A stretch of DNA of 64,000 bases, taken from positions 372,001 to 436,000 of the forward strand of contig CP145418.1 in assembly GCA_036867785.1 (NCBI GenBank), given 5' to 3'. Positions within the stretch are counted from its first letter, which is position 1. Each line of letters opens with the position of its first letter. Origin of the DNA: Plasmodiophora brassicae. Its lineage: Eukaryota. Of this stretch, positions 19,842 to 38,805 are shown piece after piece. Under the pieces are notes generated by a model. It was not told the DNA's origin. It did not search any database and was given only the letters and a program-made list of their open reading frames with translations. The position numbers and the translations under genes are program-made.

Positions 19842-20679
19842 TCATTCGGTTTTAGAACAATGATGCAATCTTGTGAATGCAGAGTTTGGTGCATTCATGA
19901 CGGCGTCGTATTCGAAACGCGTAATGCACCCGACGTGGGAACAATCGCGGATCAACAAACGTCGACCCAGGTGTGATCGTTGCAGGATGTCGAACGCGCG
20001 CGGCCGGATAACGCAATGCACGAATAGGTTCCACACGACAGCAACGCCAATTCCAATGACAGCACCGACGGCGACTTGCTCCGGCGTGTGAACCTTCATA
20101 TGAATCCTTCGTACCGCATACTATCAGATGACATTTGTACAGCGAGACAGATGCCAACGAACCTGGAGTACGCACACGAGCTCGCCAGCGTCGTTACGGC
20201 AATGCCGACAGCGAGATTTCGTGGCCAGGGGCGACCCATGCGACATCGCATTAGAATAGCAGACGTTGCAATGAAGAACATGAACTGGGCGTGGTCGGAC
20301 GGCATACCATAGCCGGAACGCAGCGACTCTACCCATTCGGTTACAACTCGATATACAGCCGAAACCGTCAGCCATAACGTTAACGCCAACTATCGCTAGA
20401 GGCGCAGTGCAGCAGGCAAACATTGAAACTAGACTGGGGCAACGACGTACCGATTGGTCTGGGTTGACGGATCACGCGTTTGAGGACGACGTTGACAACC
20501 TCGCAGACAATGCAGCCGCACCCGAGGAAGAACGTCTGCAGGTCGCGCCGGGACCAGAACAATGTCGCAACGGCAACGCAGACGGCGATCGGCAGCAGCG
20601 ACGTGTACGCCAGCAGGTGGCTGAACAGGTCGCCGTGATGGTACCAGACGTACGTCAGCTGGACGACCTTCCACGCCAT
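19842..20679 (-). CDS. DOLPP1: Dolichyldiphosphatase (PAP2 family)
   Basis: LTYVWY..GD, KRVIRQPRP, YGMPSDHAQF and SR..YMKVHTPEQV motifs spread over several exons. Confidence 0.9.
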
Positions 20680-20770
20680 CCGCGCGTCCCGAACAAAACG
20701 GTCGGTGTCGCCGAAGTCGCTGACGCCGCCAACCGACAAAATGGGTATCCCGGCCAGCAGCATTGCGTCA

Positions 20771-21266
20771 ATGCCAGGCTGGCGTGCGCCCGGCACCGTA
20801 CTCTCGGTTGCTGCAGGGGCCTGACGCTACCACAGCAAGCGTCGCAGGCAGGGCGCATGCGTTGCGATTCGCTCCTTGCGCCTTCGGGGCCGCTGCTGCC
20901 GAACTGGGAACTGGTGGACGTGACAGCAGCGCCGTCGTGCATCGACTCTAACCAACCAGTCCACTGAGCAGGCACAGCCAGAACGGGGCATCGTTGGCGT
21001 TCTACACTGATCCCGCCAATGCAACCCTGCAAGCGTGTGCAACAGCAATCGGCACCATGCCGCCTCCGCCAGGCAGCCCACTGATCGTGACACTTGGGCC
21101 ACCTGTACATTGCCGCCTTCTCGCAGGTACGCGGCGCCCGGCCGAGATACGACGGGTTTCAGCCCAGGCACGTTGAACACATTCAGGAGCGGCACAATGA
21201 ATACCATCTGCTGATTCGTCATCGGCGATCAACAGACCAGAGTGACTTCCCCCGCCGTGATCGATG
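20771..21266 (+). CDS. Possible small multi-exon hypothetical protein
   Basis: An ATG divergent from DOLPP1 and several intron-like segments with branch/acceptor signals. No recognisable domain. Confidence 0.25.
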
Positions 21267-21313
21267 ATGTGACGGGGTATACGGACTCTGCTACGAGCGG
21301 GGATATGTCATCG

Positions 21314-23761
21314 TCACCAGTAATCGTTGCATGAGCAGTGTCCACAGGCAAAGTTATGATGGCGCGTCGCATCGCGTACGTAAACATGTCGGTCGTACAT
21401 GAGCGAGATACGCTTGATCGCCTGGTGACAAGTGTCGCATAGGCGTCCGTGCTTGAATAAGCGGATCGGCTCGCCATCAGGGACAAGGTCAAAAGCGTCC
21501 GCAATCGCACGTATAACGGAGTGGTGGGCGAAAGGCGGCTCGCTACTGGCCCTAACGGGACCCAGCGCAGAACGTCTGTTCAAGCGTTCAATCAGTCGAT
21601 CATGCTGAGCGGAACGAGATCGGGGAGAATCGGCCACAGCACGCTCAAACTGTACGTTACGATCTGCAAGGTGCAATATCGTTGCGTCCGGCAATGCACG
21701 CAGGCCCTTCGACGCCTTCTCCTCCTGCAGGCGGGAAACGTCCTCGAATCGGCCGGCGCTGTTGTATAGGTCCATCAACAGCGTGTACGCGGATGCGAGA
21801 TCACGCGAGTCCAATGCAAGAGCTCCGATGCTCGAGAATACGCGCTCTGCGCGATCCAGATCGTTATGCCTGCGGCAGGCAACAAGCATCGCCATCCAGG
21901 GTAGAACCCCATTCTCGGCAAAGTCGACAGCGACTCGCTCCGCTGCATCCAGATCACCAGTCCGGCCGTGAAGGTCGACTAAGGAGGCACGGTGCAACGA
22001 ACCCAGAGGTAAAGCTTTGAACTCAGACAGGAGGCATAGAGCGCGATCTCGGTCGCCGACATGGCTACATCCCATTAGCAGAGATGCAAGCGTCCGACCG
22101 GTTGCCGACAGGCCACACGACTTCATCTGCTCGAGCGCTTCCAGTGCATTGGCAAGCTTTCCATGCATGCAATACGCCTCGATGATGGCGTCGAACGTAT
22201 CGATATGACTCTGATCCGGAAGCGAACAACGGCCGTGGAATAAGCCCACTGCTGCATCGAGATACCCCGATTGGGAATATGCGGTGATGAACGAGCTGAC
22301 CGTTAAATCATCGCATAGCAAATCGTGCTGCTGGGCGTGGTCAAGCAGGACCCGCAGAGTTGAATGGTCGTGGCACCGTCCAGACGCCATAATGAGCGCC
22401 CTGAACGTTGGAGACTTGTTCATACTGGAATGTACTCCAGAGGCGCAAAAGAACAATCGTGAAGCATCGGCGATGTTGTCGCTGTTAGCAAGAGCGGATA
22501 TAAGACAAGAGTACGTCGCCACGATCGGAACCTGACCCGCCGCTTCCAGTTGGTCAACCATTGCGATAGCGTTTTGAAATTTGTCATGATGGGCATACGC
22601 TAACACCATCGCATGAAAGACCACAAGGTCGGGGTCCGAGACAGCGCGCCGCGCCTCAAAGACTGTCTTAGCAGCGTCGAGCTGGCCACAGTGGTCGTAG
22701 GCCGAGACGAAGGCGCTCACAATAAAATCGTTCAACGACAGCCATCCCTTGGCATGTGCATACTCGTGAAGCACGGCAATAGAGGAGGCATCCCGTTGCC
22801 GTCCGCAAGCAGAAACGAGAGTCGAGAACACGGGTGCGTCAATATGCACATTGTGGCTCGTCATTCTGAGGAACAGGGACATGGCCTGCGTTATGCGACC
22901 GGCTTTCGCCATCATGAAGAGAACATGAGTGTAGATCTGCCAGGACGGCGGCGTACCAATAGAATCCATGAGTTTCAGGGCGTTAACAGCCTGCTCGAAT
23001 CGGTGTTGTGCCAGCAATGCCGTCATCAGATTGGCGAACAACTGCTGGTTGTGCTGCGGCGCAATGACGTTCTGACGAAGCAGGTCGAACAGTTGCTCGG
23101 CAGTGTCGGCAGCTTGAGGGCATTGGGATTCGGCACAGCACACTGCAAATATGGACAAAAGTCGCTCACTGAACTCGACGCTGCTGTGGACGGCATCGGT
23201 GACCAGGAAGAGCGCCGACGATGGGCTTTTCGACAGCCTACAGATGTTGGCGACCCCGAAGATGACTTCGTGGGAGCGCAACCCGCACCTGGCGTACAGA
23301 TCGAGGGCCTGGCGTAGGAGAGGTGGGCTGGTTTTCTGACAAGCACCGAGGAAGGTACAGAACATCATATCACAAACGGGGACATCACGAGATACGGCCG
23401 CATGAAGCACGGAAGGCGCCTTGGAGGGAAAGTGCCGTTTGCAAAACGATAACATGGACTGGAAGAACGGCGACCGCAGTGGAATGCCACTATCAAGGAT
23501 GCGGTGGAACACCGACGTAGCATGCATTGGGTCGTTCGTCTCCTTCAGGATACGGATGGCCAGCTGCACTCTTGGCCGTCGGAAGAATGCATCAAGTCGG
23601 TGGGATGCAGAAGATCGCCTCCTCGGTTGCACCTGCGGATGCCTGGCAGGAGACGCTACCGCGCATTTCGATGCAGATGCGGAAAAGCCTGCAGCGTTGC
23701 TGCTGCAGTTGAATTGGCCCCTGAGTGCGACGACTGCGGTTTGACGAGCAAACACGAGCAT
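21314..23761 (-). CDS. Pentatricopeptide-repeat protein with C-terminal E/DYW-like deaminase domain; probable mitochondrial targeting
   Basis: About 815-aa intronless ORF with an Arg/Ser/Ala-rich N-terminus and PPR-like repeats. It ends PIRLFKHGRLCDTCH...VRDATRHHNFACGHCSCNDYW. Confidence 0.93.
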   Translation of the reverse strand: MLVFARQTAVVALRGQFNCSSNAAGFSASASKCAVASPARHPQVQPRRRSSASHRLDAFFRRPRVQLAIRILKETNDPMHATSVFHRILDSGIPLRSPFFQSMLSFCKRHFPSKAPSVLHAAVSRDVPVCDMMFCTFLGACQKTSPPLLRQALDLYARCGLRSHEVIFGVANICRLSKSPSSALFLVTDAVHSSVEFSERLLSIFAVCCAESQCPQAADTAEQLFDLLRQNVIAPQHNQQLFANLMTALLAQHRFEQAVNALKLMDSIGTPPSWQIYTHVLFMMAKAGRITQAMSLFLRMTSHNVHIDAPVFSTLVSACGRQRDASSIAVLHEYAHAKGWLSLNDFIVSAFVSAYDHCGQLDAAKTVFEARRAVSDPDLVVFHAMVLAYAHHDKFQNAIAMVDQLEAAGQVPIVATYSCLISALANSDNIADASRLFFCASGVHSSMNKSPTFRALIMASGRCHDHSTLRVLLDHAQQHDLLCDDLTVSSFITAYSQSGYLDAAVGLFHGRCSLPDQSHIDTFDAIIEAYCMHGKLANALEALEQMKSCGLSATGRTLASLLMGCSHVGDRDRALCLLSEFKALPLGSLHRASLVDLHGRTGDLDAAERVAVDFAENGVLPWMAMLVACRRHNDLDRAERVFSSIGALALDSRDLASAYTLLMDLYNSAGRFEDVSRLQEEKASKGLRALPDATILHLADRNVQFERAVADSPRSRSAQHDRLIERLNRRSALGPVRASSEPPFAHHSVIRAIADAFDLVPDGEPIRLFKHGRLCDTCHQAIKRISLMYDRHVYVRDATRHHNFACGHCSCNDYW

Positions 23762-24244
23762 CGACAACACCGCACATCCGCGCGCAATGTTGAAGGCGCT
23801 GCTGAAATCGGTATCGAGTCACTCACTCCGCAAACAATTATTTAGTTGAACAACCAAGGAACGCGGGAACTCGCAAGTCACGACACGCCTCTCTCCACAG
23901 TTCAAACGTTCGAAAAACGCGTCGCGGATAACCTGAGAGTTCTGATTGAAGCATCCGCTACAAGTTACCATCTACGGCGAAGGCAGCCTAGACAAAAGCG
24001 ATGCCGATGTTGTGCCATTGTCTCATTGATGGGATAATCGAGTTACATAGCGATCGCTTAGGTATGTAGGTAGGTCAACCCGCTCAACCGTAACGCAGTT
24101 TGGCACGGATTGCGCAAGCGTGCAGCCGCCGGGGTTGCTGGTGCGTGGTTCTAAAAGTCCGTGGAACGTTCCGTGGTGTTGCCATTGATCATCGATTTTG
24201 GTCGTTTGGCACGTCATTGCATATCGCGTTCAATCCGGGACATC

Positions 24245-24799
24245 ATGACTGCCTCCGAACCGCTTGTCCCGACTCTGCTGTGGGGCCAGGACAAAGAACA
24301 CATCTACGCGACGATCAACGTTCCTGATCTGGAGTCCGCCGACGTGTCCTTCGAGGAGACCAAGCTAACCTTCTCGGGCAGCAAGGGCGAGCGCTCCGGT
24401 GATGCCAAGGAGTACCAGATGTCCATTGAGTTGGCGCACCCGATTAACACCAGTGCATGCAATTGGGCGAAGCGGCCGCGAAATGTCCAGATTGTAATGG
24501 CGAAGAAGGAGTCGGACACGAAGTGGGCACAATTTGCGAAGGACGCCAAGCGATGGAAGGCACATATCAGCGTGGACTGGAACAAGTGGGTTGATTCCGA
24601 CGACGAAGACGATGTTCCTGGGCGATTCGACGACATGAAGGACCTGATGGGCGGCGGCATGGATTTCTCCTCGATGATGAAGGGTGCTAGCGGCATTCCC
24701 GGCGACATCAACGCTAATGAGGAAGACAGCGATGACGACCTTCCGGAACTCGAAGAGACACCCGCGCAAGCGCCGGCCGAAACCGAGGCGTCGGCCTGA
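24245..24799 (+). CDS. p23/Sba1 Hsp90 co-chaperone (CS domain)
   Basis: PTLLWGQDKEHIYATI and ISVDWNKWVDSDDED motifs; acidic tail. Confidence 0.92.
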   Translation: MTASEPLVPTLLWGQDKEHIYATINVPDLESADVSFEETKLTFSGSKGERSGDAKEYQMSIELAHPINTSACNWAKRPRNVQIVMAKKESDTKWAQFAKDAKRWKAHISVDWNKWVDSDDEDDVPGRFDDMKDLMGGGMDFSSMMKGASGIPGDINANEEDSDDDLPELEETPAQAPAETEASA

Positions 24800-24923
24800 T
24801 TTCGCCATGTTCGATACCGGACTATTCCTACTTTACTGATAAAATGTTGTGCTTTCGAGCACCGGCTTCGCAACTCTATCATAAGTGTCGGGGCGTGAGT
24901 AACGCTTGTTCAGGGCACGCGCC

Positions 24924-25383
24924 ATGCAAAAGTCGGCGCCTACCGAGCAAGGGTCGTCAATAGCAGACACGCGTCGTAGTCAGCATGTGCGTACGGTCGG
25001 TGTGTTCAAGGTGCACTCATTACAGCTGGGAACGTACGTAACCTGCAGCCCGCTCAGGTCATGCTGTCACTAACGGCATCCCAGCATGCGTGTTTGTGGT
25101 TCTGCAGGGTAAAACAGATCCAGGCAGCGGGACGCCAGCGCACGTAGCGACCGCAGTTGAAGACGGCCTTGCCACCGGCTATCATCGGCGGGACGTTCTC
25201 AGGCATGTGCCACTAGCAGAACGGTGCCAGTGCGATCGGAGCCAAAGGTCGCTGTCACCGCTGGAGAAGTCTGTCCCCGAGCGAAAGGTCAACAGGCTGT
25301 CTGGAATCCCGCGTGTCGTCTACACAGACGAGCAACTGTTAGAGCTCATCGACGACAAGCAGAGCAAAGCACCGACGGCGTAA
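24924..25383 (+). CDS. Possible small hypothetical protein
   Basis: A short ORF preceded by intron-like GT..AG segments. No recognisable domain. Confidence 0.25.
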
Positions 25384-29858: not shown

Positions 29859-32800
29859 ATGAAGGTCAAGGCGCGGTATCGGGAACGGGCGACGCCGGTA
29901 CCGGCCGATGCGGATCCCGTCCGCGTTGCCATGTCGCGCGCAGATATCCCTGTTGAAGAACTGGCACATCTCGCCAAGCAAGTGGCCGATCGGCCTCGAT
30001 GGCCGTACTTCGCGTCCGCGCCGTCGCTGCTCGATTGGGTCGATACGCTAGATCGCATTGATGATGTCATTGGAAATCCGCAAACGCAGTCTGTTCATCT
30101 GGTCCCCATTCTTGCCTTCCTACGCCAACTGATTGTTAATGTCGGCGACACTCGCGTATATAACTCTGCAGAGGTAATGTGGTTCGATTCTCTCATCACG
30201 TTGTTTGTTAATATCATGTCCAATTCAGCACCTGGTTGCCCTGCTGGAGCACACAGACCCAGGCGTAATCCTGGGGACACTGAACGTCGTTCGTGCTCTG
30301 GCTCAGTCAGGTCAAGCAGCTATCCGCCTGTCTCATCGGGCACAACCGCTTCTGAGGCCCAGGGTACACGCGCTCGCCACCCTGGTTGTCACGTCTGACG
30401 GCTATTCGATGCGGAATTTGGCCAAGTCAGCTGTGCCTGGTAAAGGCCCTGTGACAGAGCCGGATGTGTCTTCATCTACGGACGAGTTTATCGCACGGCA
30501 TCGCTCTGCAATTGCTTCAGGATCACCAGACGTTTGCCGACTCTATGTTCGCGTCGTTCTTAAGGCAGTGCAAGTGGCCATAGCGCTGCAGTCTCCAGCA
30601 CTTGCATCGACGTCATCGATTGCCCAGCAAATCCTTGGCCTGATCGAGAACTCGAACGATGATGCGGATGCGTCAACGGACGGTCTTGTCGTCGAAGCCT
30701 TGCGAACGCTTACTGAATTGTCAACTGTCCCCATGACGCGACGACGTTTGATTGAAGCCTCCGTATTTGACGAGGATGGCCTCATCATGAATGGGTTCCA
30801 TTCAGCCGTCGAGGCTGCTCGGCGTGGGTCGTCCATCGATCGTCTTAGCGCCTATCTGTCTCTTTTTCTTGAACTTGTATCCTCCGATTCTGGTGAAAGA
30901 GGAAGCGGTGCGAGTTCAACGATTCTCGGCCGCGCCATTGATGCTGACAGTCTGATCCGTTGTTTGTCGTCTCTCATGGAAGACGGATTCATGAACCTTA
31001 TTCCTGAAATATGTGCCCTACTCGCAACGCTCTTGATTGGAAGTAGCGCTTCTCGCGCAGCATTCCAAGAGCAGAATGTACTGGAGAAGGTTTTCAAGTG
31101 CCTGTCGTCCATTCTTTCAGCTCCCGAACCGGACGTGCATAATTCCATGCCAGCATTACAATCTTTGCTGCGAATCGTGACGATATCTGTCCAGCGAAGT
31201 CGGGTTGTGATTCCGCAGACAATAGTCAGTGATTCTGACTTCGTCCGAATCTCCATCTCACTGTGGAACTATGCACTATCGCCTGGCAGCGTTGACGCTC
31301 AAGCGTTATTGCTTTTCGCGACATCGTGCAATGTCGTGTCGCGATTCATTCAAAACCGCCCGCGCTCCCTTCCAGCTATGCATCGGGAGGGTTTGACTGC
31401 GGAGTATTTCAGACGGTTGCCAACCGCTCTTGAACTTTCCAGTCGCGATTATAGATCTGCCCATTTCGACACTGTTGTCAAAGTGTTCTTGGATTTGGTT
31501 AGGTCACTTGCGATCCATAGTTCTGGTTTAGCAGCTGTGCTTGCTGCCGACCCGATCCAACATGTCGTTCCGTTGCTGTCTCTCCCCATCCCGAACGGCA
31601 TCCTGGCCATAGGACGAAGTATCGAGGAATGGATGCGACATTATTCAGAGTTTGAAGAGCCTGTTTTGACGGCTGTCGTGACCTGGCTGAAAGGTTTACA
31701 TGATGACTTGAGTGACGATACTCCAATTGTCAACGGCTGCCAACTACTGAAATGCATTGTCCCTCGGCATGTTGCGAAATTCTGCGCCGTCAATGGTGCA
31801 ACTCAGCTGCTCCAGTTCGCCTCGAGTCCGTCGCAGAAGACACGTCTACGTATTCATGGTATCGGACGCGAAGGTCCTTTCCCTGACCTGTGCCCGCCTC
31901 TGTCACTCGGCGACGATGCTGGTCATCTGACACCAGCAGCGGATTCTCTTGCGGAGGTATACTCATGGCTTGCAGTTCAGCAGGCTAGACTCCCGATGGA
32001 TTCGCTTTTCGAACGCATTCAAAAGGCGACTGAAACTATTACGAAATCCTCTGGATTTTCAAATCCAAACTACCTGTGGCCTTTCGATTCTGAATCCGAT
32101 ACGTCTCCTTGCGACCGCGCTTTAGAGCAATGCGTCTCGATTGCGGCTCTGCATTTCTATTTATCCATCCTACTTCGTATCCTTCGCCGCACACCTACTT
32201 TCCAGTTACGCCAGTCGACGTTATCCTCCGTGTTTGCGTCGATTTCTCGGGTCGTCGCTCGCGTTGAGTGGGCTTTGGTCTGTATCCAGGGCAACGATAC
32301 GCTTGCCCGGTTTCGAGATATCCTGGTTCATTTTGACCGGACGTATCATTGTTTGCAATGCGCCTTTACGGAACGTGGCTCGGGCCGTTCGGCTGAGCAC
32401 GGTGTCTTTCTTCCGCTGTCGCTTCAGAATGCGGCGTACCTGCTTCAGTGGCGCCCGCCGTTCTATGCCCCTGTCAACCTCCCTGTCAACGACTTGTGGA
32501 AGTGTTTAATAGATTTCACTGCCCAGGCAGTCAGGGACGCGCGCCTGTCACTTCTGAAGCAAAGACTCTCTCCGTCTGGGTCGCGGATGGTTGTAAACTC
32601 TATCGTTGCGGAAGGCAAGACGTCGCTGAAACGCATTGTTGAGTTGTGGCGTTGGTCGATCTGCGCAGTGTGCAACCCACCATCATCTAGTGATCATCCT
32701 TGGGCTGGTGGACCCTCTGAACAGCACCGCATGAAGACTCGGAAAACGCATAGTTCTTCTGACGCTCCAACATCAGTGCCTGCATGGTCATGGCCTTTGA

Positions 32801-35800
32801 CTGGACCGATGCCTACTCTGGATTCGCTTCTGGTTGAGTTGGCTGCTTTTCTATCGGATGTTGCCCTACTCCCACCTTCCGCTTTCCAGGACACTCATCC
32901 CAATCTGGGGAAACTGTGTGCGGGGTCTTTCGACATGGTGTGGAATAACTTGTTATCCTTGCCATGTGGTGTTGTGGGATCTGCCCTTCGTGCATCTGCT
33001 GTTTTCCAAAACGCTCGGTCTGCTGCGTTATCGTCGGCTCCTTTGTCAACGTCCAGCACTGCTGCATTGAGTATGGAGCAAGATGATGACGAGGCCAATG
33101 ATGATGATGATGACGATGACGATGGCGATGGTGATGAGCAAGAAAATGACGCTGATGATGACGCAATGGCTGCGGTGGGAAACAATTCCCCTGCTGTGCC
33201 TACTGATGAACATCGAGATTTGCTACTGTCCCAGCTTCAGGAGATGGGATTCGAGCAGCGTCACGTCCTTTATGCCCTGAACACATCGGGATCCAGAGAC
33301 TTTAATCAGTTGATGGATTGGATGCTATTGCATCCTCCAGTTGACGCTGGGATTGTTAGCGCTGAGCAACCTGTATCACAAGCGGCGATATCTCAGTCTT
33401 CGGGGGCGCACCAGCCAGCAGAACCGTCAATGGCTGAACCGATGGGAAAATTCGCATCCGAAATTGAGTCTTGGTTTGGTCCTGTCTGCAATGTCGATGT
33501 TCTATCGCCGTCATATGCATGCACCGTGATTGGTACTCTTTTGAGTTGCGTTGAGGCGGAAGGAGAGAAAGACGACGTCGTACGCGAGGTGTCACAATAT
33601 TGTCTGCGAGTTAAGGATTCGGCTTTTACCGGCGCTCTGTTCGCAGCGGCAACCTCTCGACTTTCTTCTCCGCGTGTCTTAGACGTCATCCTTCGGGTCC
33701 TTACAGAATCCCCGAGTGATGGTGTTGCCATGATTTGTCGCAATTCTGATTTCACGGATGGTCTATTATTTTCTTGCAGGACTGGAACTTCCTCAAGTTT
33801 CCAGATTGTCGCCTGCCTTGCATCAGTTTGGGGAGAAGATGGACTTCGACCCGCGCTTCCACTTGAGACCCGGTTGGCCTTGACACGGGTTTGTCTCGAG
33901 CGCCTGCCCGAATCTGTTGGAGCTTTATGTGTTCTTGTCAGTCAAACCGAGGTTGCGCAAGAAGCACTTGGATGGAATGCCATTTCCTTGATCTTGAACA
34001 TGCAGGGGCCTGCTCTTCCTGAAAGCGACGCCGTTTTACTGCATCTGCTAGAAGATAACAGCCTGCTGCAGAAAACTTTGGTTCGTTCCATCCAAGCTCG
34101 CTCATCATTTGCGAATTTCTATGAGCGCTGTTCCAAACTGCTGTTTAGGGACGTATCCCGCTTGTTGAAATGGCTTCTGGAATCCGTTCAGGTCACCTCT
34201 TCAAACGGCAGTGTCATTTTGGCACCTCGAACAACTGACGACAAAGATAGCCTCGCCTTTCCGGACTCCACCTGGCCTGAGGGTCTCGGCCAAATCCTAG
34301 ATCATGTTACTACTGATCGGCGGCCAGGCCATTCTGACACTTTACGGTTGTTAGCTATTCTTCGATCTTTTCTTCGAGGGCAACGAGCTAGCTGCGACGT
34401 TATTGCTCGTTTTATCATCGAACGTGGGGTCCGCAATGGCGATGACGGCGATGTCGGGACCCGTTTCGTTGATATTGTTGTGCGCGATCTCCTGACAATT
34501 CGTAGCGCCTCGCTACGAGGACCCGACTGCAGCGCTGAAGCAGCAGCTGACCTTGCGAGGAGCCTGAGGAAGGCTGCGCAAGGGCTTCTCGTCGAACTTT
34601 CGTCGTCCTGCGAAGACGTTGCTAACGCTGTGTTTCAGTCTATTCTTCATGCCATGCGCCGTGAATCGGTACACAGTTCCAGTTGTGGTCGTGACCGTCG
34701 CGTCGCACGTTTTGCCTCTGCCCTTTCCGTGCTGCTTCGCGGTGACACCGCGCGAGCGAGTCTTATGATTCGGCAGGGTGTCATACCTGTCCTCGTGCAA
34801 GCGATGGAATCGTTGGATCTTTCTTCGCCTACCCTGTCTGAAAGCGTCGAAGGTGTCATCCGCGCGTTGGAGAACCTTGGCACTCTTGATCTGCAGCATC
34901 CACTCCCGAGAGATTTCTCTGACGAACCATCCGTGCCAGAAAGCGTTATAGCGCCCCAGACTGTGCCAATGGATGTCGATGTCGATGACAATGAGAGTGA
35001 CGTCAATGATGATCATCCAGTCGAGATGGAAGAAGAGGAGGAAGAGGATGAGGATGACAATCGCGATCAAGACAATGAGGAAGATGACGACGACGATGAG
35101 GAAGATGACGAGCATTCTCCGGACAACGAGGCCACTGCTGAGGATGTAGACGGTGGAAACGAAGAGGACCCTGCCGAACAAGACGATTCCGAGTACGACG
35201 AGGACGAGCTTGTCATCAACGACGCCGAAAACGATGAGGAAAATCGTGGCGCTCACTTGCGCGTACTCGATGCCTCTGCATCGGCGGCTCCTTTGCAAGC
35301 GCAGTCCCGAATGTTTTCCCAACACACCATTGAGCAGATTGCGGATGTCCTGCAGCAGAGTGGCGATATTGGCGGTGGTATGATCCAGGGCGTCCAGCAA
35401 GCAACCGACCGCCTGCGAAACATTCTTGACGAGTTCCAACGGAACATTGGCGCTGACTTTGCTGACTTTGGCGAGCTGGTCATTGCTGCACCTGCTGTAC
35501 CGAACCGCAACCGTCGTAACCTGTCTGTGGGCGGTGACGGCGTCGTTGTAAGAAGCTCGATTCAGCGCTCCCCATTCGACGAACTTCCATGGCTTAATCC
35601 AAGGCGTTCGAGTGGAGATACATGGCGCCGTGTTCCTCCAGCTCCTGTTGCACCGCATCCTGAGGCGCTTCGCACAGTCTTCGGACGACAGATTGGGGTT
35701 CCTTCTCGGACGACTGGTGAAACATCCAGCTGGTACTCTCGGATAGCAGCAAGCTCGGGCGATTCCATTAGATCGGCGGCTCTGTCTACGCTCCAGCAGC

Positions 35801-38800
35801 AGGCACAGGCACAGACGTCGTCTGAGCAGAACACTTCGGCCGACTCCGTCGTGCGAGTTGCTTCTGAAACGCTTCCAGTGGCGTCCGGATCTAACGTTTC
35901 TGACCCTTCGACAATCGAGGGTGCATTGGATGTCGAGCATCCTGAGGGTATCAGTGGGCATAATGGACAACCGCAACAGTCAGATTCTGGCGCTATGGAT
36001 GTCGACCTGCGTGAGGAGGAGCGCATTTCGTCTGATCAACCAGATGCAGAGCATTCGCAGCCTGAAGCAGATGTTCCGCCTGAACTGATTGAGCACTCAG
36101 CACTAGATCCGCCACAACCTGACCCAGTGGAATCCCAAGATGCACCACCGGCGGAGGCGCCCGTGGAGTCGACTGGTCTCACAGAAGACGAGCGTCAGGC
36201 GTTTCTGGCGGCTCTGCCACCTGAACTGCAAGCTGAAATCATGCTGCAAGATAGCAGGTTGCAGGCAGCTCACGCTAACCCATCTGAGATGAACCCTTCC
36301 ATATCTGCCGATATCGACAACGCATCGTTTATTGCTGCTCTACCCGACGATATTCGCGAAGAATTTCTTCTGTCACAAGATGACAACTTCCTAGCTGCAC
36401 TGCCTCCTGAATTGATGTCGGAGGCTATTCTGTTGCGTCAGCGTAATCTGTACTCTGAGCGTGACGATTTCCCGGCTCCGATACGTCGGCAACAAAATGT
36501 ATCAGCGCCCTCCCAAGGGACCTCGTCTTCGAACAATGCGGCGGAATCACAGGTGGCGACACCGCTTCTTCCCGTTCGACTGGTTGCGCCTCTTGTGAAG
36601 CTTTACACGATTCGCTCCTTCGATGCCGTTAAGTCCATCCACCGGCTTGTGCGTATCATGATTCGCTTCCAAGAGACGCGGGTTGCTCTGGTCGATTATT
36701 TGTTGAACGTGTGCTCGTCTCCGTCGTATACTCTGGCCCGTGCACTGCGAACTCTCAGGTTCATGTGCGTATCGTCACCTGAAGTTGTATCACATTTCCT
36801 TTCTGGTTTACCGGCTCCTCCGATTAACCGAGTCTTCGGGTTGCTCTCTGTTGCTCGACGTGAGCCGAGCGACTCTGTCTTAACCGGCTTAGTCGGTCTG
36901 GTCGAGGACGTTCTTTCTATTTTCAAAGGCGAAACACTGCCGGCAGACTTGTCGATCCCGGTACTTTCAGGTAACGCCATTGCCGATCTTGCCGCCATAA
37001 CCAACTTTCGTCAGTGTTCCGTCAAAGTTGCTGCCTCTTGCCAGGGGTTTGTCGGTGTTCTCTGCCTTGAGGAGTCGAACAAACGGCGTATTATTCGAGA
37101 GTTCGCGTCTGCAGTTCAGCGTGCTCGGCAGGCGGCGATGGCTCCTGGCGCCAAGTCTTGGGAAGTCTCGCATCAACATTCCCTTGTACTTCGCAATATT
37201 ACAATTTTGCAATCAGCCATTGCTGCATCGTCGTCAGCGCTGGACGAAGCCACCACATTGGTTATCGACACGTGCGTTGCCGATCTAAGCGCTCTATGGG
37301 AATGGCTCGACAATGCTCTGAAGGCGTTTGCGCCCACAAAGCCGTCTGTCAGCGAGCGAAGAATGAGCTCGAGTTCGACCAGCAATGTCGACAATGCCTC
37401 TCTTGAGCGTGCTTTGCAGTTCAAGGCCCTCATCGAAGCACGTTTCTTGCAGCAGCGGATCGCCTCCACGCCGGAGGCCTTTGTTGAGTTCATCTCTTTC
37501 TGCGATACGCACCGTCGTATTCTTAACTACATGTGTTCCCGATATCCCCGGCTCCTGTCCGGGTCGTTCCAAGCACTTTTGACGACGAAGGCGATCAAAG
37601 TGTTAGATTTCGACAACAAACGAAGGTATTTCAGGTCGCAGCTGGAGCAGCAGTTTGGGTCATTTCGATCTCGGTATCGAAGCGTGAAGTTACAGGTAGG
37701 AATAGTTTGGTTACTAGGGACATGCCCGTTTACATTTGCTTTTCAGATCCGTCGTGATCGGCTGTTCGAAGATTCATATCACCAGATCCGTGGCCAAACA
37801 CTCAATGAGCTCCGTTCCCACATGAGTGTGCAGTTTTATGGCGAAGAAGGCATGGACGCCGGTGGACTGACTCGGGAATGGTTCCACGTCATGTCGCACG
37901 AAATCTTCAACCCGAACTATCTCCTGTTCCGGACGGCGGCGAACTCGTCAGTCGTCTTCCAGCCTAACGAATTGTCCTTCTGGAATCCCGAGCACATCGA
38001 CTTCTTCAAATTCGTTGGGCGCTTTGTCGGCAAGGCGATCTACCAAGGTTGCTTGCTTGATGCCTACTTTACGCGTTCATTTTACAAACACATGCTGGGT
38101 GCGAAGCCGTCCTTCTCCGACCTGGAATCGATTGATCCCGATTTCTACAAATCGTTGAAGTGGATCCTGGAGAATCCGATCGACGGTGTCCTTGACCTAA
38201 CTTTCTCTGCCGAGACGCACGCGTTCGGCGAGAAGCGAACTGTCATGCTGAAACCGGAGGGCAGCACCATTCCCGTGACAGATGCCAACAAGGGCGAGTA
38301 CGTTCGTCTAATCACCGAGCTCCGGACGACGACCGAGATTCGCGCCCAGATCGATGCGTTCGTCGACGCGTTCCACGAGCTGATCCCGAAGGAGCTCATC
38401 AGCATCTTTAGTGACCATGAACTAGAGCTTCTGATCAGCGGCCTGCCGGCCATCGATATTGACGATCTGCGAGCCAACACCGAGTACCATGGTCTGTCCG
38501 AGTCGTCCGATGTCGTGCAGTGGTTCTGGAGCGCCCTGTCGACCTTCGACGGCGAGGAGAAGGCGCTGTTCATTCAGTTCGTAACTGGAACCAGTAAGGT
38601 ACCGATTGGCGGCTTCCGGTCTCTACAGGGGATGTCCGGCATCCAACGGTTCCAGATCCACAAAGCGTCTGGCGTCGACCGGCTGCCGTCGTCACACACG
38701 TGTTTCAATCAGCTCGATCTGCCCGATTATTCCTCGCCCGAATCGCTGGCAGAGAAGCTGCGCATCGCCATCCGAGAAGGAAGCACAGGGTTTGGTTTCG

Positions 38801-38805
38801 CTTGA
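29859..38805 (+). CDS. Giant HECT E3 ubiquitin ligase, HUWE1/Tom1/UPL1 type
   Basis: Helical N-terminus, UBA-like (LQEMGF), acidic region, FLAALPPEL repeats, and a HECT domain ending LPSSHTCFNQLDLP...GFGFA. Introns at 30174-30228 and probably 37696-37746. Confidence 0.96.

What the first reader, a model, noticed from the sequence alone, without database searches (positions are those of the whole stretch)
21314..23761. Plant-editing-type PPR-DYW protein in a non-plant eukaryote, with the catalytic glutamate lost
Seen: an intronless PPR array followed by a degenerate PG box (KGLRALPDATIL), HHSVIRAIA, RLCDTCH and the terminal CSCNDYW. Known: DYW domains are the cytidine deaminases of C-to-U organellar RNA editing in land plants, are patchy elsewhere, and need the glutamate of HxE. 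Here HSE is HSV (GTT codon at 21515-21517), while the zinc ligands and DYW end are kept. Inference: a mitochondrial pseudo-deaminase used for RNA binding, splicing or processing, or a partner in an uncharacterised editing system. Horizontal acquisition is possible.
Basis: partly seen in the sequence, partly recalled or inferred. Interest (0 to 1): 0.85.

Follow-up and report, generated by a model that had tools for sequence, protein, structure and literature searches.

The report
Dead-deaminase PPR-DYW gene in a plasmodiophorid
A clubroot-type plant parasite carries and transcribes a plant-style RNA-editing gene whose enzyme centre has lost its key residue, and it is one of a family of about 34 such genes, half of which are crippled in the same centre.

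Summary
Window 21314-23761 (-) is one 815-codon ORF. It scores 96.2 bits on Pfam PPR and 56.7 bits on DYW_deaminase, against a cut-off of 24. It ends in CSCNDYW. Alignments to a solved synthetic PPR-DYW and to plant DYW proteins put V749 (GTT, 21515-21517) where the catalytic Glu of HxE sits. Both zinc sites are kept.

Spliced RNA contigs from 4 runs of 4 studies cover the whole ORF with no differing letters and no intron.

The gene is not a one-off. A search of 1.84 billion representatives plus trees gives a 34-row plasmodiophorid-type DYW clade. Of these rows, 22 are named Plasmodiophora brassicae. Seventeen of 34 have a complete HxE+CxxC signature, 11 lack only the Glu, and 6 are broken elsewhere. 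Outside the clade 117 of 118 are complete.

The window's copy is among the most degenerate: the PG box is lost, the gating segment is about 10 residues short, and HSEK reads HSVI.

Best reading: a mitochondrial pseudo-deaminase that binds RNA, with any chemistry supplied in trans. Localisation, targets and editing in this organism are untested. Recent transfer from the host plant is not supported.

The parts
21314..23761 (-). Complete intronless ORF of 815 codons plus stop (stop at 21314-21316): PPR-E1-E2-DYW protein
   Evidence: ORF and translation. (Pfam PPR 96.2 bits, DYW_deaminase 56.7 bits). (four RNA contigs colinear over the whole ORF, no differing letters, no joint inside it).
23594..23761 (-). 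Residues 1-56: basic, Ser/Ala-rich N-terminus with the look of a mitochondrial presequence. The public gene model starts only at Met79.
   Evidence: residues 1-60 hold 8 K+R and 1 D+E; the public model P0002 has 737 aa; blastp alignments to paralogues begin at query residues 6-61, upstream of Met79. RNA contigs reach 23802-24284, beyond the ATG at 23761. Targeting itself is inferred, not tested.
23048..23593 (-). Residues 57-238: family-specific helical N-terminal region conserved among the plasmodiophorid paralogues
   Evidence: paralogue sequences share this region. (consensus of alignment A1). (PPR_long hit over 174-334). Boundaries come from my reading.
21914..23047 (-). Residues 239-616: PPR array resembling the PLS type; I read it as P-P-L-S, P-P-L-S, P2-L2-S2
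   Evidence: query 285-434 aligns three times, in steps of about 100 residues, to the P-L-S triplets of the synthetic PLS-type protein 9kfx. Query 488-815 aligns to its C-terminal part, residues 278-612 (138 bits). The motif-by-motif parse is my own reading. A self-BLAST found no internal repeat.
21701..21907 (-). Residues 619-687: E1 and E2 motifs
   Evidence: continuous alignment with the E1-E2 part of 9kfx. (Pfam E_motif only 19.1 bits, below its 27.3 cut-off). (four helices, 3-68 of the 199-aa model, pLDDT 91-97).
21317..21700 (-). Residues 688-815: DYW-type deaminase domain, fold kept
   Evidence: PF14432, residues 746-815 = profile 24-93. (AF2 model, mean pLDDT 91.0, pTM 0.79). (Foldseek: 9kfx_A E 8.2e-15, TMq 0.86; OTP86 DYW 7o4e/7o4f TMt 0.70-0.76; DYW1 7w86 TMt 0.71).
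21668..21700 (-). Residues 688-698: degenerate PG box (P-D in place of P-G; the W-I-E part is absent)
   Evidence: column-wise comparison with plant-like references.
21524..21667 (-). Residues 699-746: shortened gating segment. PG-to-HxE spacing is 56 residues against 66-68 in canonical domains, and the model has no beta-finger.
   Evidence: spacing table. (blocks 111-130 of the model have pLDDT 69-74 and no strand between helix 102-114 and helix 132-143). The role of the gating domain is taken from PMC7611903 (passages).
21515..21523 (-). H747-S748-V749: HxE motif with the catalytic Glu replaced by Val (GTT at 21515-21517). The next residue is Ile where K/R is usual.
   Evidence: alignments. 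(codon). (no differing letters in four RNA contigs that cover it).
21425..21439 (-). C775-x-x-C778-H779: the two Cys ligands of the catalytic zinc, and the first His of the structural zinc site
   Evidence: (H163 of the 199-aa piece, = H779, is invariant in 50 rows; C159 and C162 are at least 90% conserved).
21317..21361 (-). Residues 801-815: H802, C809 and C811 of the structural zinc site, and the terminal D-Y-W
   Evidence: H186, C193 and C195 of the piece are invariant in all 50 aligned rows. Zn2 ligand roles from PMC3239186 and PMC7611903 (passages).

Best explanation
This is a nuclear gene of a plasmodiophorid, most likely Plasmodiophora brassicae itself. It encodes an 815-aa PPR-E1-E2-DYW protein that is imported into mitochondria and binds a specific transcript through its PPR array.

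Its DYW domain still folds and can still hold both zinc ions. It has lost the proton-shuttling Glu (V749), the K/R that follows it, the PG box, and about 10 residues of the gating segment. It therefore cannot deaminate cytidine itself.

I commit to this mechanism: it acts as a site-recognition (pseudo-deaminase) subunit. The C-to-U chemistry at its site is supplied in trans by one of the roughly 17 paralogues that keep a complete HxE+CxxC signature. This resembles plant E+ PPR proteins with DYW1/DYW2, and the inactive Tad3/ADAT3 subunit beside active Tad2/ADAT2.

Shown: the gene, its transcription, family membership, the lost residues, the kept zinc ligands and fold, and the paralogue family with its states.

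Inferred: loss of activity (from published mutagenesis of other DYW proteins), mitochondrial location, RNA binding, the existence of C-to-U editing in this organism, and supply in trans.

Odds: catalytically dead but functional RNA-binding factor, about 0.75. Within that, trans-editing helper about 0.4 of the total and a non-editing role about 0.3.
For: Family and lesion.

Fold kept: AF2 pLDDT 91.0. Foldseek top matches are the synthetic PPR-DYW, the OTP86 DYW domain and DYW1.

Expression and sequence in RNA: in each of 4 runs from 4 studies, one contig covers 20451 to 23802-24284 with no differing letters. The same contig joins 20328 to 20451 across a 122-nt stretch that the window holds and that ends GT..AG on the minus strand, so it comes from spliced RNA.

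Candidate active partners exist: 17 of 34 clade rows have a complete H-x-E and C-x-x-C, 8 of them named P. brassicae.

The domain seems to be kept for a reason other than catalysis. The four Zn2 ligands (H779, H802, C809, C811) are invariant in all 50 aligned rows, including all 16 degenerate clade rows aligned there. Meanwhile 17 of 34 clade rows have lost a Zn1-site residue or the Glu, against 1 of 118 outside the clade.

The nearest full-length paralogues (P0181 42% over 765 aa, P0189 41%, P0255 40%) keep HSE. The Glu was therefore lost after an old duplication, yet 815 codons stay open.

The Glu is needed: in PPR65, Ala at any HxERx24CxxC key residue gave complete loss of editing (PMC6397227). 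OTP86 E894 is described as the proposed proton shuttle, and deleting the beta-finger reduced editing (PMC7611903).

Precedent for a Glu-less deaminase paralogue serving as an inactive subunit: Tad3 (PMC3239186).

Precedent in Rhizaria for DYW-PPR together with mitochondrial C-to-U editing: Paradinida (PMC11946409).
Against: No C-to-U editing has been reported for plasmodiophorid mitochondria. The P. brassicae mtDNA paper mentions RNA editing only in its reference list, and the searches found none. I could not test it here.

No orthologue from another species was found. So neither the age of the Val nor purifying selection on this copy is shown.

Mitochondrial targeting rests on amino-acid composition only.

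In plants, PPR proteins that rely on a trans deaminase have usually lost or truncated the DYW domain rather than kept a full dead one (recalled, not from a call). Full retention fits a non-editing structural role just as well.

Four 'complete' paralogues, including the window's two nearest (P0181, P0189), also have gating segments shortened by 11-23 residues. The pool of truly active partners may therefore be nearer 12-13 than 17.

Contigs cannot give expression level or transcript ends.
Confidence: 0.4

Rival explanations
1. Non-editing RNA maturation factor. The protein binds a mitochondrial transcript and helps group II intron splicing, end formation, stabilisation or translation. The dead DYW domain is kept only as a folded RNA-contacting or protein-docking cap, and no cytidine is deaminated at its site.
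For: It carries the same lesions as above. The P. brassicae mtDNA is described as having 54 introns, with group II introns and unclear splice rules (PMC6823432), so there is much demand for splicing factors. No editing is on record for this lineage. The full domain, with its invariant Zn2 site, is kept rather than truncated.
Against: Seventeen family members keep a complete deaminase signature. The family as a whole therefore looks like an editing family. The C-terminal P2-L2-S2-E1-E2-DYW arrangement is that of editing factors. Nothing here links this protein to an intron.
Confidence: 0.3
2. A decaying paralogue: transcribed, but no longer doing anything useful, on its way to becoming a pseudogene in a family that is shedding members.
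For: It has four separate lesions in the catalytic apparatus. It has a long terminal branch, 1.11 changes per column against a median of 0.81. Half of the family is damaged. No orthologue was found to show constraint.
Against: The ORF of 815 codons is open, and its nearest paralogue is only 42% identical. All seven zinc ligands and the terminal DYW are intact. The model is confident (pLDDT 91.0). It is present in RNA contigs of four studies.
Confidence: 0.12
3. Still a catalyst. Another residue takes over the proton shuttle, or the domain carries out a different reaction, such as RNA cleavage (as once claimed for some DYW domains) or another base conversion.
For: The Zn1 ligands H747, C775 and C778 and the Lys five residues before C775 are kept. 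Iyer et al. mention a claim that some DYW domains are endoRNases (PMC3239186).
Against: Ala at the Glu abolished editing in PPR65. The U-to-C (DYW:KP) variant also relies on a catalytic glutamate, according to the title and abstract of PMC11713852 (search listing only). The PG box and the beta-finger are also damaged.
Confidence: 0.05
4. Not a mitochondrial protein of the parasite at all, for example a factor delivered to the host cell that interferes with host organellar RNA editing.
For: The organism lives inside plant cells. Host PLS-class PPR genes change expression during clubroot (PMC13247141). No localisation data exist.
Against: The N-terminus is basic and acid-poor like a presequence, and I read no hydrophobic signal-peptide core in it (reading only). 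The family is deep and lineage-specific, with a conserved N-terminal region shared by all members. The protein has no complete deaminase centre with which to act on host RNA.
Confidence: 0.03

Closest known systems
Land-plant PLS-class PPR-DYW editing factors (e.g. Physcomitrium PPR65/PPR56, Arabidopsis OTP86; the synthetic PLS-DYW protein of PDB 9kfx)
   Same: PPR array followed by E1, E2 and a DYW-type deaminase domain. It has the same fold (Foldseek TMq 0.86 to 9kfx, TMt 0.70-0.76 to OTP86). It has the same Zn1 ligands (H, CxxC), Zn2 ligands (H, H, CxC) and terminal DYW.
   Different: The catalytic Glu is Val, and the following K/R is Ile. The PG box is degenerate and the gating segment is about 10 residues shorter. 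Identity is only about 26-31%. The repeat unit appears to be P-P-L-S rather than P-L-S (my reading). It sits in a separate clade.
The plasmodiophorid DYW-PPR family (database names 'DYW domain-containing protein [Plasmodiophora brassicae]', e.g. PBRA_004378, PBRA_007680)
   Same: It is a member: the 34-row clade has 99/90 support. It shares the N-terminal region and the R-H-H-x-F type Zn2 motif. The nearest paralogues are 40-42% identical over the full length.
   Different: Seventeen rows, including the nearest full-length paralogues, keep HSE and CxxC. This copy is one of 11 that lost only the Glu. It has the shortest PG-to-HxE spacing among those 11 (56 residues) and, unlike 8 of the other 10, also lacks the Lys after the motif.
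Protist DYW-PPR proteins linked to mitochondrial C-to-U editing (Naegleria and other Heterolobosea; Paradinida in Rhizaria)
   Same: A non-plant DYW-PPR, presumably mitochondrial. A Willaertia magna protein (P0193) is among the hits. Paradinids, also Endomyxa, have PPR-DYW and C-to-U editing (PMC11946409).
   Different: The paradinid sequences are reported to keep the His, Glu and Cys residues. I had no paradinid or fungal sequences to place in the tree. Editing is not documented for plasmodiophorids.
Tad3/ADAT3, the inactive paralogous subunit of the Tad2/ADAT2 tRNA adenosine deaminase
   Same: A deaminase-fold paralogue that keeps the zinc site but lacks the Glu of HxE, and works beside an active paralogue (PMC3239186). 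This is the functional analogy I propose.
   Different: It belongs to a different division of the deaminase superfamily (helix-4 versus C-terminal hairpin), has no PPR array, and acts on tRNA. Heterodimerisation of the window's protein is not shown.
Plant E+ PPR proteins working with DYW1/DYW2 in trans
   Same: The specificity factor and the deaminase are separate polypeptides (PMC7611903 passage).
   Different: There the specificity factor has a truncated DYW domain that the partner completes. Here the full domain is present but dead.

Membership tests
PPR-DYW protein (Pfam PF14432 DYW_deaminase with PPR repeats) | DYW_deaminase profile match above the curated cut-off | tested here: met
   56.7 bits against a cut-off of 24, E 2.2e-15, residues 746-815 = profile 24-93 of 93. 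The first 23 profile positions (the PG-box side) are not matched.
PPR-DYW protein (Pfam PF14432 DYW_deaminase with PPR repeats) | Array of PPR motifs upstream | tested here: met
   PF01535 96.2 bits, PF13041 94.6 bits, PF17177 59 bits. phmmer hits to designer and natural PPR structures.
PPR-DYW protein (Pfam PF14432 DYW_deaminase with PPR repeats) | E1/E2 motifs between the array and the DYW domain | tested here: inconclusive
   Pfam E_motif scores 19.1 bits, below its 27.3 cut-off. However, there is an unbroken alignment of residues 488-815 to the P2-L2-S2-E1-E2-DYW part of 9kfx, and four confident helices in the model.
PPR-DYW protein (Pfam PF14432 DYW_deaminase with PPR repeats) | DYW deaminase fold | tested here: met
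   AF2 pLDDT 91.0. Foldseek: 9kfx_A E 8.2e-15; OTP86 DYW E 6.4e-08, TMt 0.75; DYW1 E 6.3e-06, TMt 0.71.
PPR-DYW protein (Pfam PF14432 DYW_deaminase with PPR repeats) | Second (structural) zinc site H, H, CxC and C-terminal D-Y-W | tested here: met
   H779, H802, C809, C811 and DYW at 813-815. The four ligands are invariant in 50 aligned rows.
Catalytically competent DYW cytidine deaminase (C-to-U editing enzyme) | Zn1 ligands: His of HxE and CxxC | tested here: met
   H747, C775 and C778.
Catalytically competent DYW cytidine deaminase (C-to-U editing enzyme) | Catalytic Glu of HxE (proton shuttle) | tested here: not met
   V749, codon GTT at 21515-21517. It is the same in the window and in four RNA contigs.
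Catalytically competent DYW cytidine deaminase (C-to-U editing enzyme) | K/R at position 4 of the HxE[K/R] signature | tested here: not met
   I750. The K/R requirement is taken from PMC6397227.
Catalytically competent DYW cytidine deaminase (C-to-U editing enzyme) | PG box | tested here: not met
   It reads A-L-P-D-A-T-I-L-H where the references read K-x-P-G-x-S-W-I-E.
Catalytically competent DYW cytidine deaminase (C-to-U editing enzyme) | Full-length gating domain with beta-finger | tested here: inconclusive
   PG-to-HxE spacing is 56 residues against 66-68 in plant-like references. The model shows no hairpin there, and pLDDT is 69-74. A model cannot prove absence.
Catalytically competent DYW cytidine deaminase (C-to-U editing enzyme) | Editing of a defined cytidine in organellar RNA | not testable with these tools
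Organelle-targeted PPR protein | Import into mitochondria | not testable with these tools
   Composition only: residues 1-60 hold 8 K+R and 1 D+E. No targeting predictor was on hand.
Tad3/ADAT3-like inactive deaminase subunit (functional analogy only, not homology at family level) | Lacks the Glu of HxE while keeping the zinc ligands | tested here: met
   The Tad3 property is from PMC3239186.
Tad3/ADAT3-like inactive deaminase subunit (functional analogy only, not homology at family level) | Forms a complex with an active paralogue | not tested
   No informative result; see Tried and rejected.
DYW:KP variant (U-to-C editing) | Catalytic Glu kept, K-P in place of P-G | tested here: not met
   The Glu is absent and the box reads L-P-D. 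The KP features are partly recalled. The reliance on a catalytic glutamate is from the title and abstract of PMC11713852 in a search listing.

The most novel reading that the evidence does not exclude
Plasmodiophorids run a plant-like mitochondrial C-to-U editing system, so far unreported. It is built from two kinds of DYW-PPR paralogue: about a dozen active deaminases and about twenty pseudo-deaminases such as this one. The dead copies choose the sites and pair with, or hand over to, the live ones. This would be an ADAT2/ADAT3-style division of labour evolved independently inside the DYW family.
Probability: 0.2. Interest if true: 0.8.

Novelty: new variant of a known kind. Interest (0 to 1): 0.58.

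Why it matters
DYW-PPR proteins outside land plants are few, and where they have been studied they go with mitochondrial C-to-U editing. In this lineage-specific family of about 34 genes in a major crop parasite, half have lost catalytic residues while all keep the structural zinc site.

This gives two testable predictions. First, clubroot mitochondria edit C to U. Second, full-length dead DYW domains have a non-catalytic job.

Either result would bear on an open question in plant RNA editing: what the DYW domain does besides catalysis, and how editosomes are assembled from several PPR proteins. The system has no MORF-type helpers on record.

It also corrects the public gene model, which appears to lack the first 78 codons.

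Tried and rejected
1. The genome search 'own': no genome is held for this window. The paralogue census therefore had to come from protein databases.

3. The search for homologous proteins restricted to residues 620-815 found only the window's own protein. The word index does not reach the divergent C-terminus. The full HMMER scan replaced it.

4. The search for related loci in metagenome contigs: 24 pattern matches, none confirmed by tblastn. No orthologue was obtained.

5. The look-up of sequencing runs (did not complete): no holder is on record as RNA. The RNA nature of runs X10, X17, X18 and X20 was a guess by the tool. I infer it from the spliced joint.

6. Complex prediction of the window's E-DYW part with the DYW part of the complete paralogue P0167: no verdict. 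It is not used as evidence either way.

7. Self-BLAST of the protein for internal repeats printed nothing at E <= 1. The P-P-L-S parse therefore remains my reading, plus the triplet-stepped alignments.

8. Recent transfer from the host plant: rejected, because the clade sits apart from the 3 plant-like reference rows of the 40-row tree and is deep and star-like.

9. DYW:KP (U-to-C) identity: rejected (see membership test).

10. Chance ORF or annotation artefact: rejected.

11. Literature: no paper in the searchable library treats plasmodiophorid DYW proteins or plasmodiophorid mitochondrial editing. PMC13386178 counts '31 DYW in Rhizaria' and refers to Table S10. Supplements were closed, so I could not see which species these are or whether active-site states are listed there.
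Full report
**1. The observation**

The minus strand of window 21314-23761 holds a single ATG-to-stop ORF of 815 codons.

- Pfam gives PPR 96.2 bits, PPR_2 94.6 bits and PPR_long 59 bits.
- Pfam DYW_deaminase (PF14432) scores 56.7 bits against a gathering score of 24. It matches residues 746-815, which are profile positions 24-93 of 93.
- The E_motif model reaches only 19.1 bits, below its 27.3 cut-off.
- Against PDB sequences the best match is a synthetic PLS-type PPR-DYW protein (9kfx, E 4.3e-67). Residues 488-815 align without a break to its C-terminal part.
- In that alignment, and in alignments with plant and protist DYW proteins, the tripeptide H747-S748-V749 lies under H-S-E. C775-x-x-C778-H779 lies under C-x-D-C-H, and the last seven residues lie under C-S-C-x-D-Y-W.
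- The Val codon is GTT at 21517-21515 on the minus strand.

**2. Is the gene real and expressed?**

Twenty public runs from 9 studies hold the stretch. I laid four runs from four studies that the tool guessed to be RNA (X10, X17, X18, X20) on window 20300-25000.

- Each run has one contig colinear with 20451 up to 23802, 23865, 23978 or 24284. Each covers the whole ORF with no differing letters and no indel.
- In each run the same contig joins 20328 to 20451. It skips 122 nt that the window holds and that read CT..AC on the plus strand, i.e. GT..AG on the minus strand.
- That is a spliced intron of the next gene downstream on the same strand. These contigs therefore come from RNA.
- It follows that the DYW gene is transcribed, has no intron, and carries GTT in RNA as in DNA.
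- The contigs extend 41 to 523 nt beyond the ATG at 23761.
- Contigs cannot give transcript ends or levels, and a contig across two genes does not show a single transcript.

**3. Which organism?**

The window is GC-rich (52-67%). It carries ordinary nuclear eukaryotic genes:
- a CS/p23 gene;
- ArfGap;
- RuvB-like 2 (TIP49);
- a UCH peptidase;
- Sua5;
- a 2798-aa HECT ligase;
- a CH-domain protein;
- a polysaccharide deacetylase.

All named close relatives of the DYW protein are Plasmodiophora brassicae proteins.

The window's own RuvB-like 2 lies in the database on a 1.3-Mb contig with its name withheld. No P. brassicae-labelled orthologue appears among the 120 listed hits, and the next best are at most 80% identical. 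I infer that the window is P. brassicae itself or something nearly identical to it. This is an inference, not a label I was given.

**4. The family**

A HMMER scan of 1.84 billion cluster representatives with the C-terminal 199 residues found 1608 proteins at E <= 1e-3 and 713 at E <= 1e-10. The best 150 were listed.

*Trees.*
- A FastTree of 151 C-termini separates a 34-row clade (local support 95) from 117 other rows. I left out one row, P0217, which has a C-terminal extension.
- An IQ-TREE analysis of the 34 rows plus six references supports the clade at 99/90. It supports the clade's union with two unnamed environmental sequences (P0172, P0175) at 100/99, against three plant-like rows and Willaertia magna. 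For this tree the HxE and CxxC columns were removed.
- Inside the clade the tree is star-like: 21 of 37 inner branches are below 80.

*Composition of the 34 rows.*

| Rows | Count | Source |
|---|---|---|
| The window's protein | 1 | - |
| Named P. brassicae | 22 | 3; 9 of 10 looked up; 10 of 10 |
| Logan-only, unnamed (P0008, P0010) | 2 | |
| ENA, unnamed (P0166) | 1 | |
| Not looked up (cap reached) | 8 | - |

The rows are representatives at 50% identity taken from the top 150 hits, so the true family may be larger. A 2026 survey counts '31 DYW in Rhizaria' (PMC13386178, passage seen).

**5. Active-site states**

| State | Rows (of 34) |
|---|---|
| Complete: His and Glu of HxE and both Cys of CxxC | 17 |
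| Glu lost only | 11 |
| Broken elsewhere | 6 |

- Among the 11 Glu-lost rows, the replacement is Val in three, Pro in two, Thr in two, Asp in two, and Cys and Ala in one each. All 11 are P. brassicae or the window.
- Among the 6 other rows, the His is lost in three and a CxxC cysteine in five.
- Among the 23 rows assigned to P. brassicae (including the window), 8 are complete, 11 are Glu-less and 4 are broken elsewhere. The look-ups were chosen among degenerate rows, so 17 of 34 is the fairer figure.
- Outside the clade 117 of 118 rows are complete. The single exception, P0300, also reads HSV.
- On the best tree the Glu-less state needs 8 changes (bootstrap range 7-10). Well-supported branches alone force only 2. 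Repeated loss is therefore likely but not proven.
- By contrast, the four ligands of the second, structural zinc site (H779, H802, C809, C811 in the window's numbering) are invariant in all 50 rows of alignment A1.

**6. How degenerate is this copy?**

Four lesions are visible:
- the Glu is lost;
- the residue after the motif is Ile, where K/R is usual; 8 of the other 10 Glu-less paralogues keep Lys;
- the PG box reads P-D and lacks the W-I-E part;
- the distance from the PG-box Pro to the HxE His is 56 residues, against 66-68 in plant-like, Willaertia and environmental references. It is the shortest among the 11 Glu-less rows.

An AF2 model of the last 199 residues, built with the 50-row alignment, has mean pLDDT 91.0 and pTM 0.79. 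Its two weakest stretches, at pLDDT 69-74, fall in the gating region, where it draws no beta-hairpin.

The model's best structural matches are 9kfx (E 8.2e-15, TMq 0.86), the OTP86 DYW domain (TMt 0.70-0.76) and DYW1 (TMt 0.71). The fold and both metal sites are therefore kept, while the parts needed for chemistry and its regulation are not.

Published work supports this reading:
- Ala at any key residue of HxERx24CxxC abolished editing by PPR65 in E. coli (PMC6397227, passages).
- E894 of OTP86 is described as the hypothesised proton shuttle, paired with K915. Deleting the beta-finger markedly reduced editing (PMC7611903, passages).

**7. Architecture**

- Residues 1-60 are basic and almost free of acidic residues (8 K+R, 1 D+E).
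- The public model of this protein (P0002, 737 aa) starts at Met79. Alignments to paralogues begin at query residues 6-61, and the paralogues share the segment just upstream of Met79. I therefore take Met1 at 23761 as the start and the first ~56 residues as a presequence. This is inferred.
- A family-specific helical region follows, then a PPR array from about residue 239.
- Query residues 285-434 align three times, in steps of about 100 residues, to the P-L-S triplets of 9kfx. The array is therefore PLS-like.
- Reading the motifs by eye, I get P-P-L-S, P-P-L-S, P2-L2-S2, E1, E2, DYW. That is a four-motif unit rather than the plant three-motif unit. This parse is my own: a self-BLAST found no repeat, and a scripted tabulation was not run.

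**8. Mechanism**

What is shown is a transcribed, full-length PPR-E-DYW gene with a dead-looking catalytic centre, inside a family that also holds intact centres.

I infer that the protein is a mitochondrial, sequence-specific RNA-binding factor that cannot deaminate.

- **Preferred model (about 0.4).** It marks a site for editing carried out by a complete paralogue. Candidate partners exist. The C-terminal architecture is that of editing factors. Inactive Glu-less paralogues are known to serve beside active ones in another deaminase family: Tad3 with Tad2 (PMC3239186). Plant E+ proteins use DYW1/DYW2 in trans (PMC7611903).
- **Main rival (about 0.3).** It has a non-editing role such as splicing or stabilisation. 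The P. brassicae mitochondrial genome is described as having 54 introns and unresolved splice rules (PMC6823432), and no editing has been reported for the lineage.
- **Other rivals.** A decaying copy (about 0.12), residual or altered catalysis (about 0.05), and a non-mitochondrial role (about 0.03).

Against my preferred model:
- editing in plasmodiophorids is undocumented;
- no orthologue was found to show constraint;
- targeting is unverified;
- four of the 'complete' paralogues, including the window's two nearest relatives, also have gating segments shortened by 11-23 residues.

**9. Origin**

The clade is monophyletic, deep and star-like. It sits next to unnamed environmental sequences that share its R-H-H-H-F type motif, not among the three plant-like reference rows.

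A recent transfer from the Brassicaceae host is not supported. Paradinids, also Endomyxa, have PPR-DYW proteins and mitochondrial C-to-U editing (PMC11946409). I had no paradinid or fungal sequences, so whether the family dates to the endomyxan ancestor stays open.

**10. Novelty**

The proteins carry automatic database names ('DYW domain-containing protein'). A 2026 survey counted DYW domains in Rhizaria.

Six searches of the paper library found no study of plasmodiophorid DYW proteins, of their active-site decay, or of editing in their mitochondria. The two clubroot papers that mention PPR proteins treat them as generic genes or deal with host PPRs.

The supplements of PMC13386178 may hold relevant tables that I could not see. 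I rate the finding a new variant of a known kind: a known domain family, in a lineage where it is barely described, with an unusual half-dead make-up.

**11. Verdict**

- Interest is 0.58. The single gene is one of many and its function is untested. The family pattern gives clear, cheap tests, chiefly RNA-versus-DNA comparison on the mitochondrial genome, for a possibly unrecognised editing system in an important crop parasite.

Noticed in passing
window 20329-20450 (minus strand), with exons around 20300-20328 and 20451-20763: A 122-nt GT..AG intron of the gene just downstream of the DYW gene is spliced out in contigs of all four runs laid. The same contigs run on through the ~550-nt spacer into the DYW ORF, so transcripts of the two genes overlap or read through. 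The 127-aa ORF fragment had no Pfam match.
   Followed up: partly
window 23528-23761 (codons 1-78 of the ORF): The public gene model of this protein (737 aa) starts at Met79. Paralogues conserve the segment upstream of Met79, and RNA contigs cover it. The model seems to lack the N-terminus, including the presequence-like part.
   Followed up: partly
window 24245-24799 (+): A CS-domain (p23-like co-chaperone) gene lies head to head with the DYW gene. Its contigs have word depths of 937 to 55774, against 46-168.5 for the DYW contig in the same runs. These are contig depths only, so this is no measure of expression.
   Followed up: no
window 30409-38805 (+): An uninterrupted 2798-codon ORF with a C-terminal HECT domain (329.5 bits) and a UBM motif: a giant E3 ubiquitin ligase without introns.
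   Followed up: no
proteins P0189, P0253, P0004, P0181 (paralogues, not in the window): Four paralogues with a complete HxE+CxxC signature have PG-to-HxE spacings of 43-55 residues instead of 66-68. 'Complete signature' may therefore overstate the number of active, normally gated deaminases.
   Followed up: partly
proteins P0166, P0172, P0175, P0236 (ENA and JGI records without organism names): Environmental DYW-PPR sequences sit at the base of, or next to, the plasmodiophorid clade and share its R-H-H-H-F type motif. Unknown protists therefore carry the same DYW lineage, all with complete signatures.
   Followed up: no
protein P0300 (unnamed, outside the clade): The only one of 118 non-clade DYW domains without the catalytic Glu also reads H-S-V.
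   Followed up: no
proteins P0008 and P0010 (Logan assemblies, unnamed): Two family members not in any P. brassicae-named cluster have lost the His of HxE and both Cys of CxxC but keep the structural zinc site. Degenerate DYW domains may also occur in a second, related organism.
   Followed up: no
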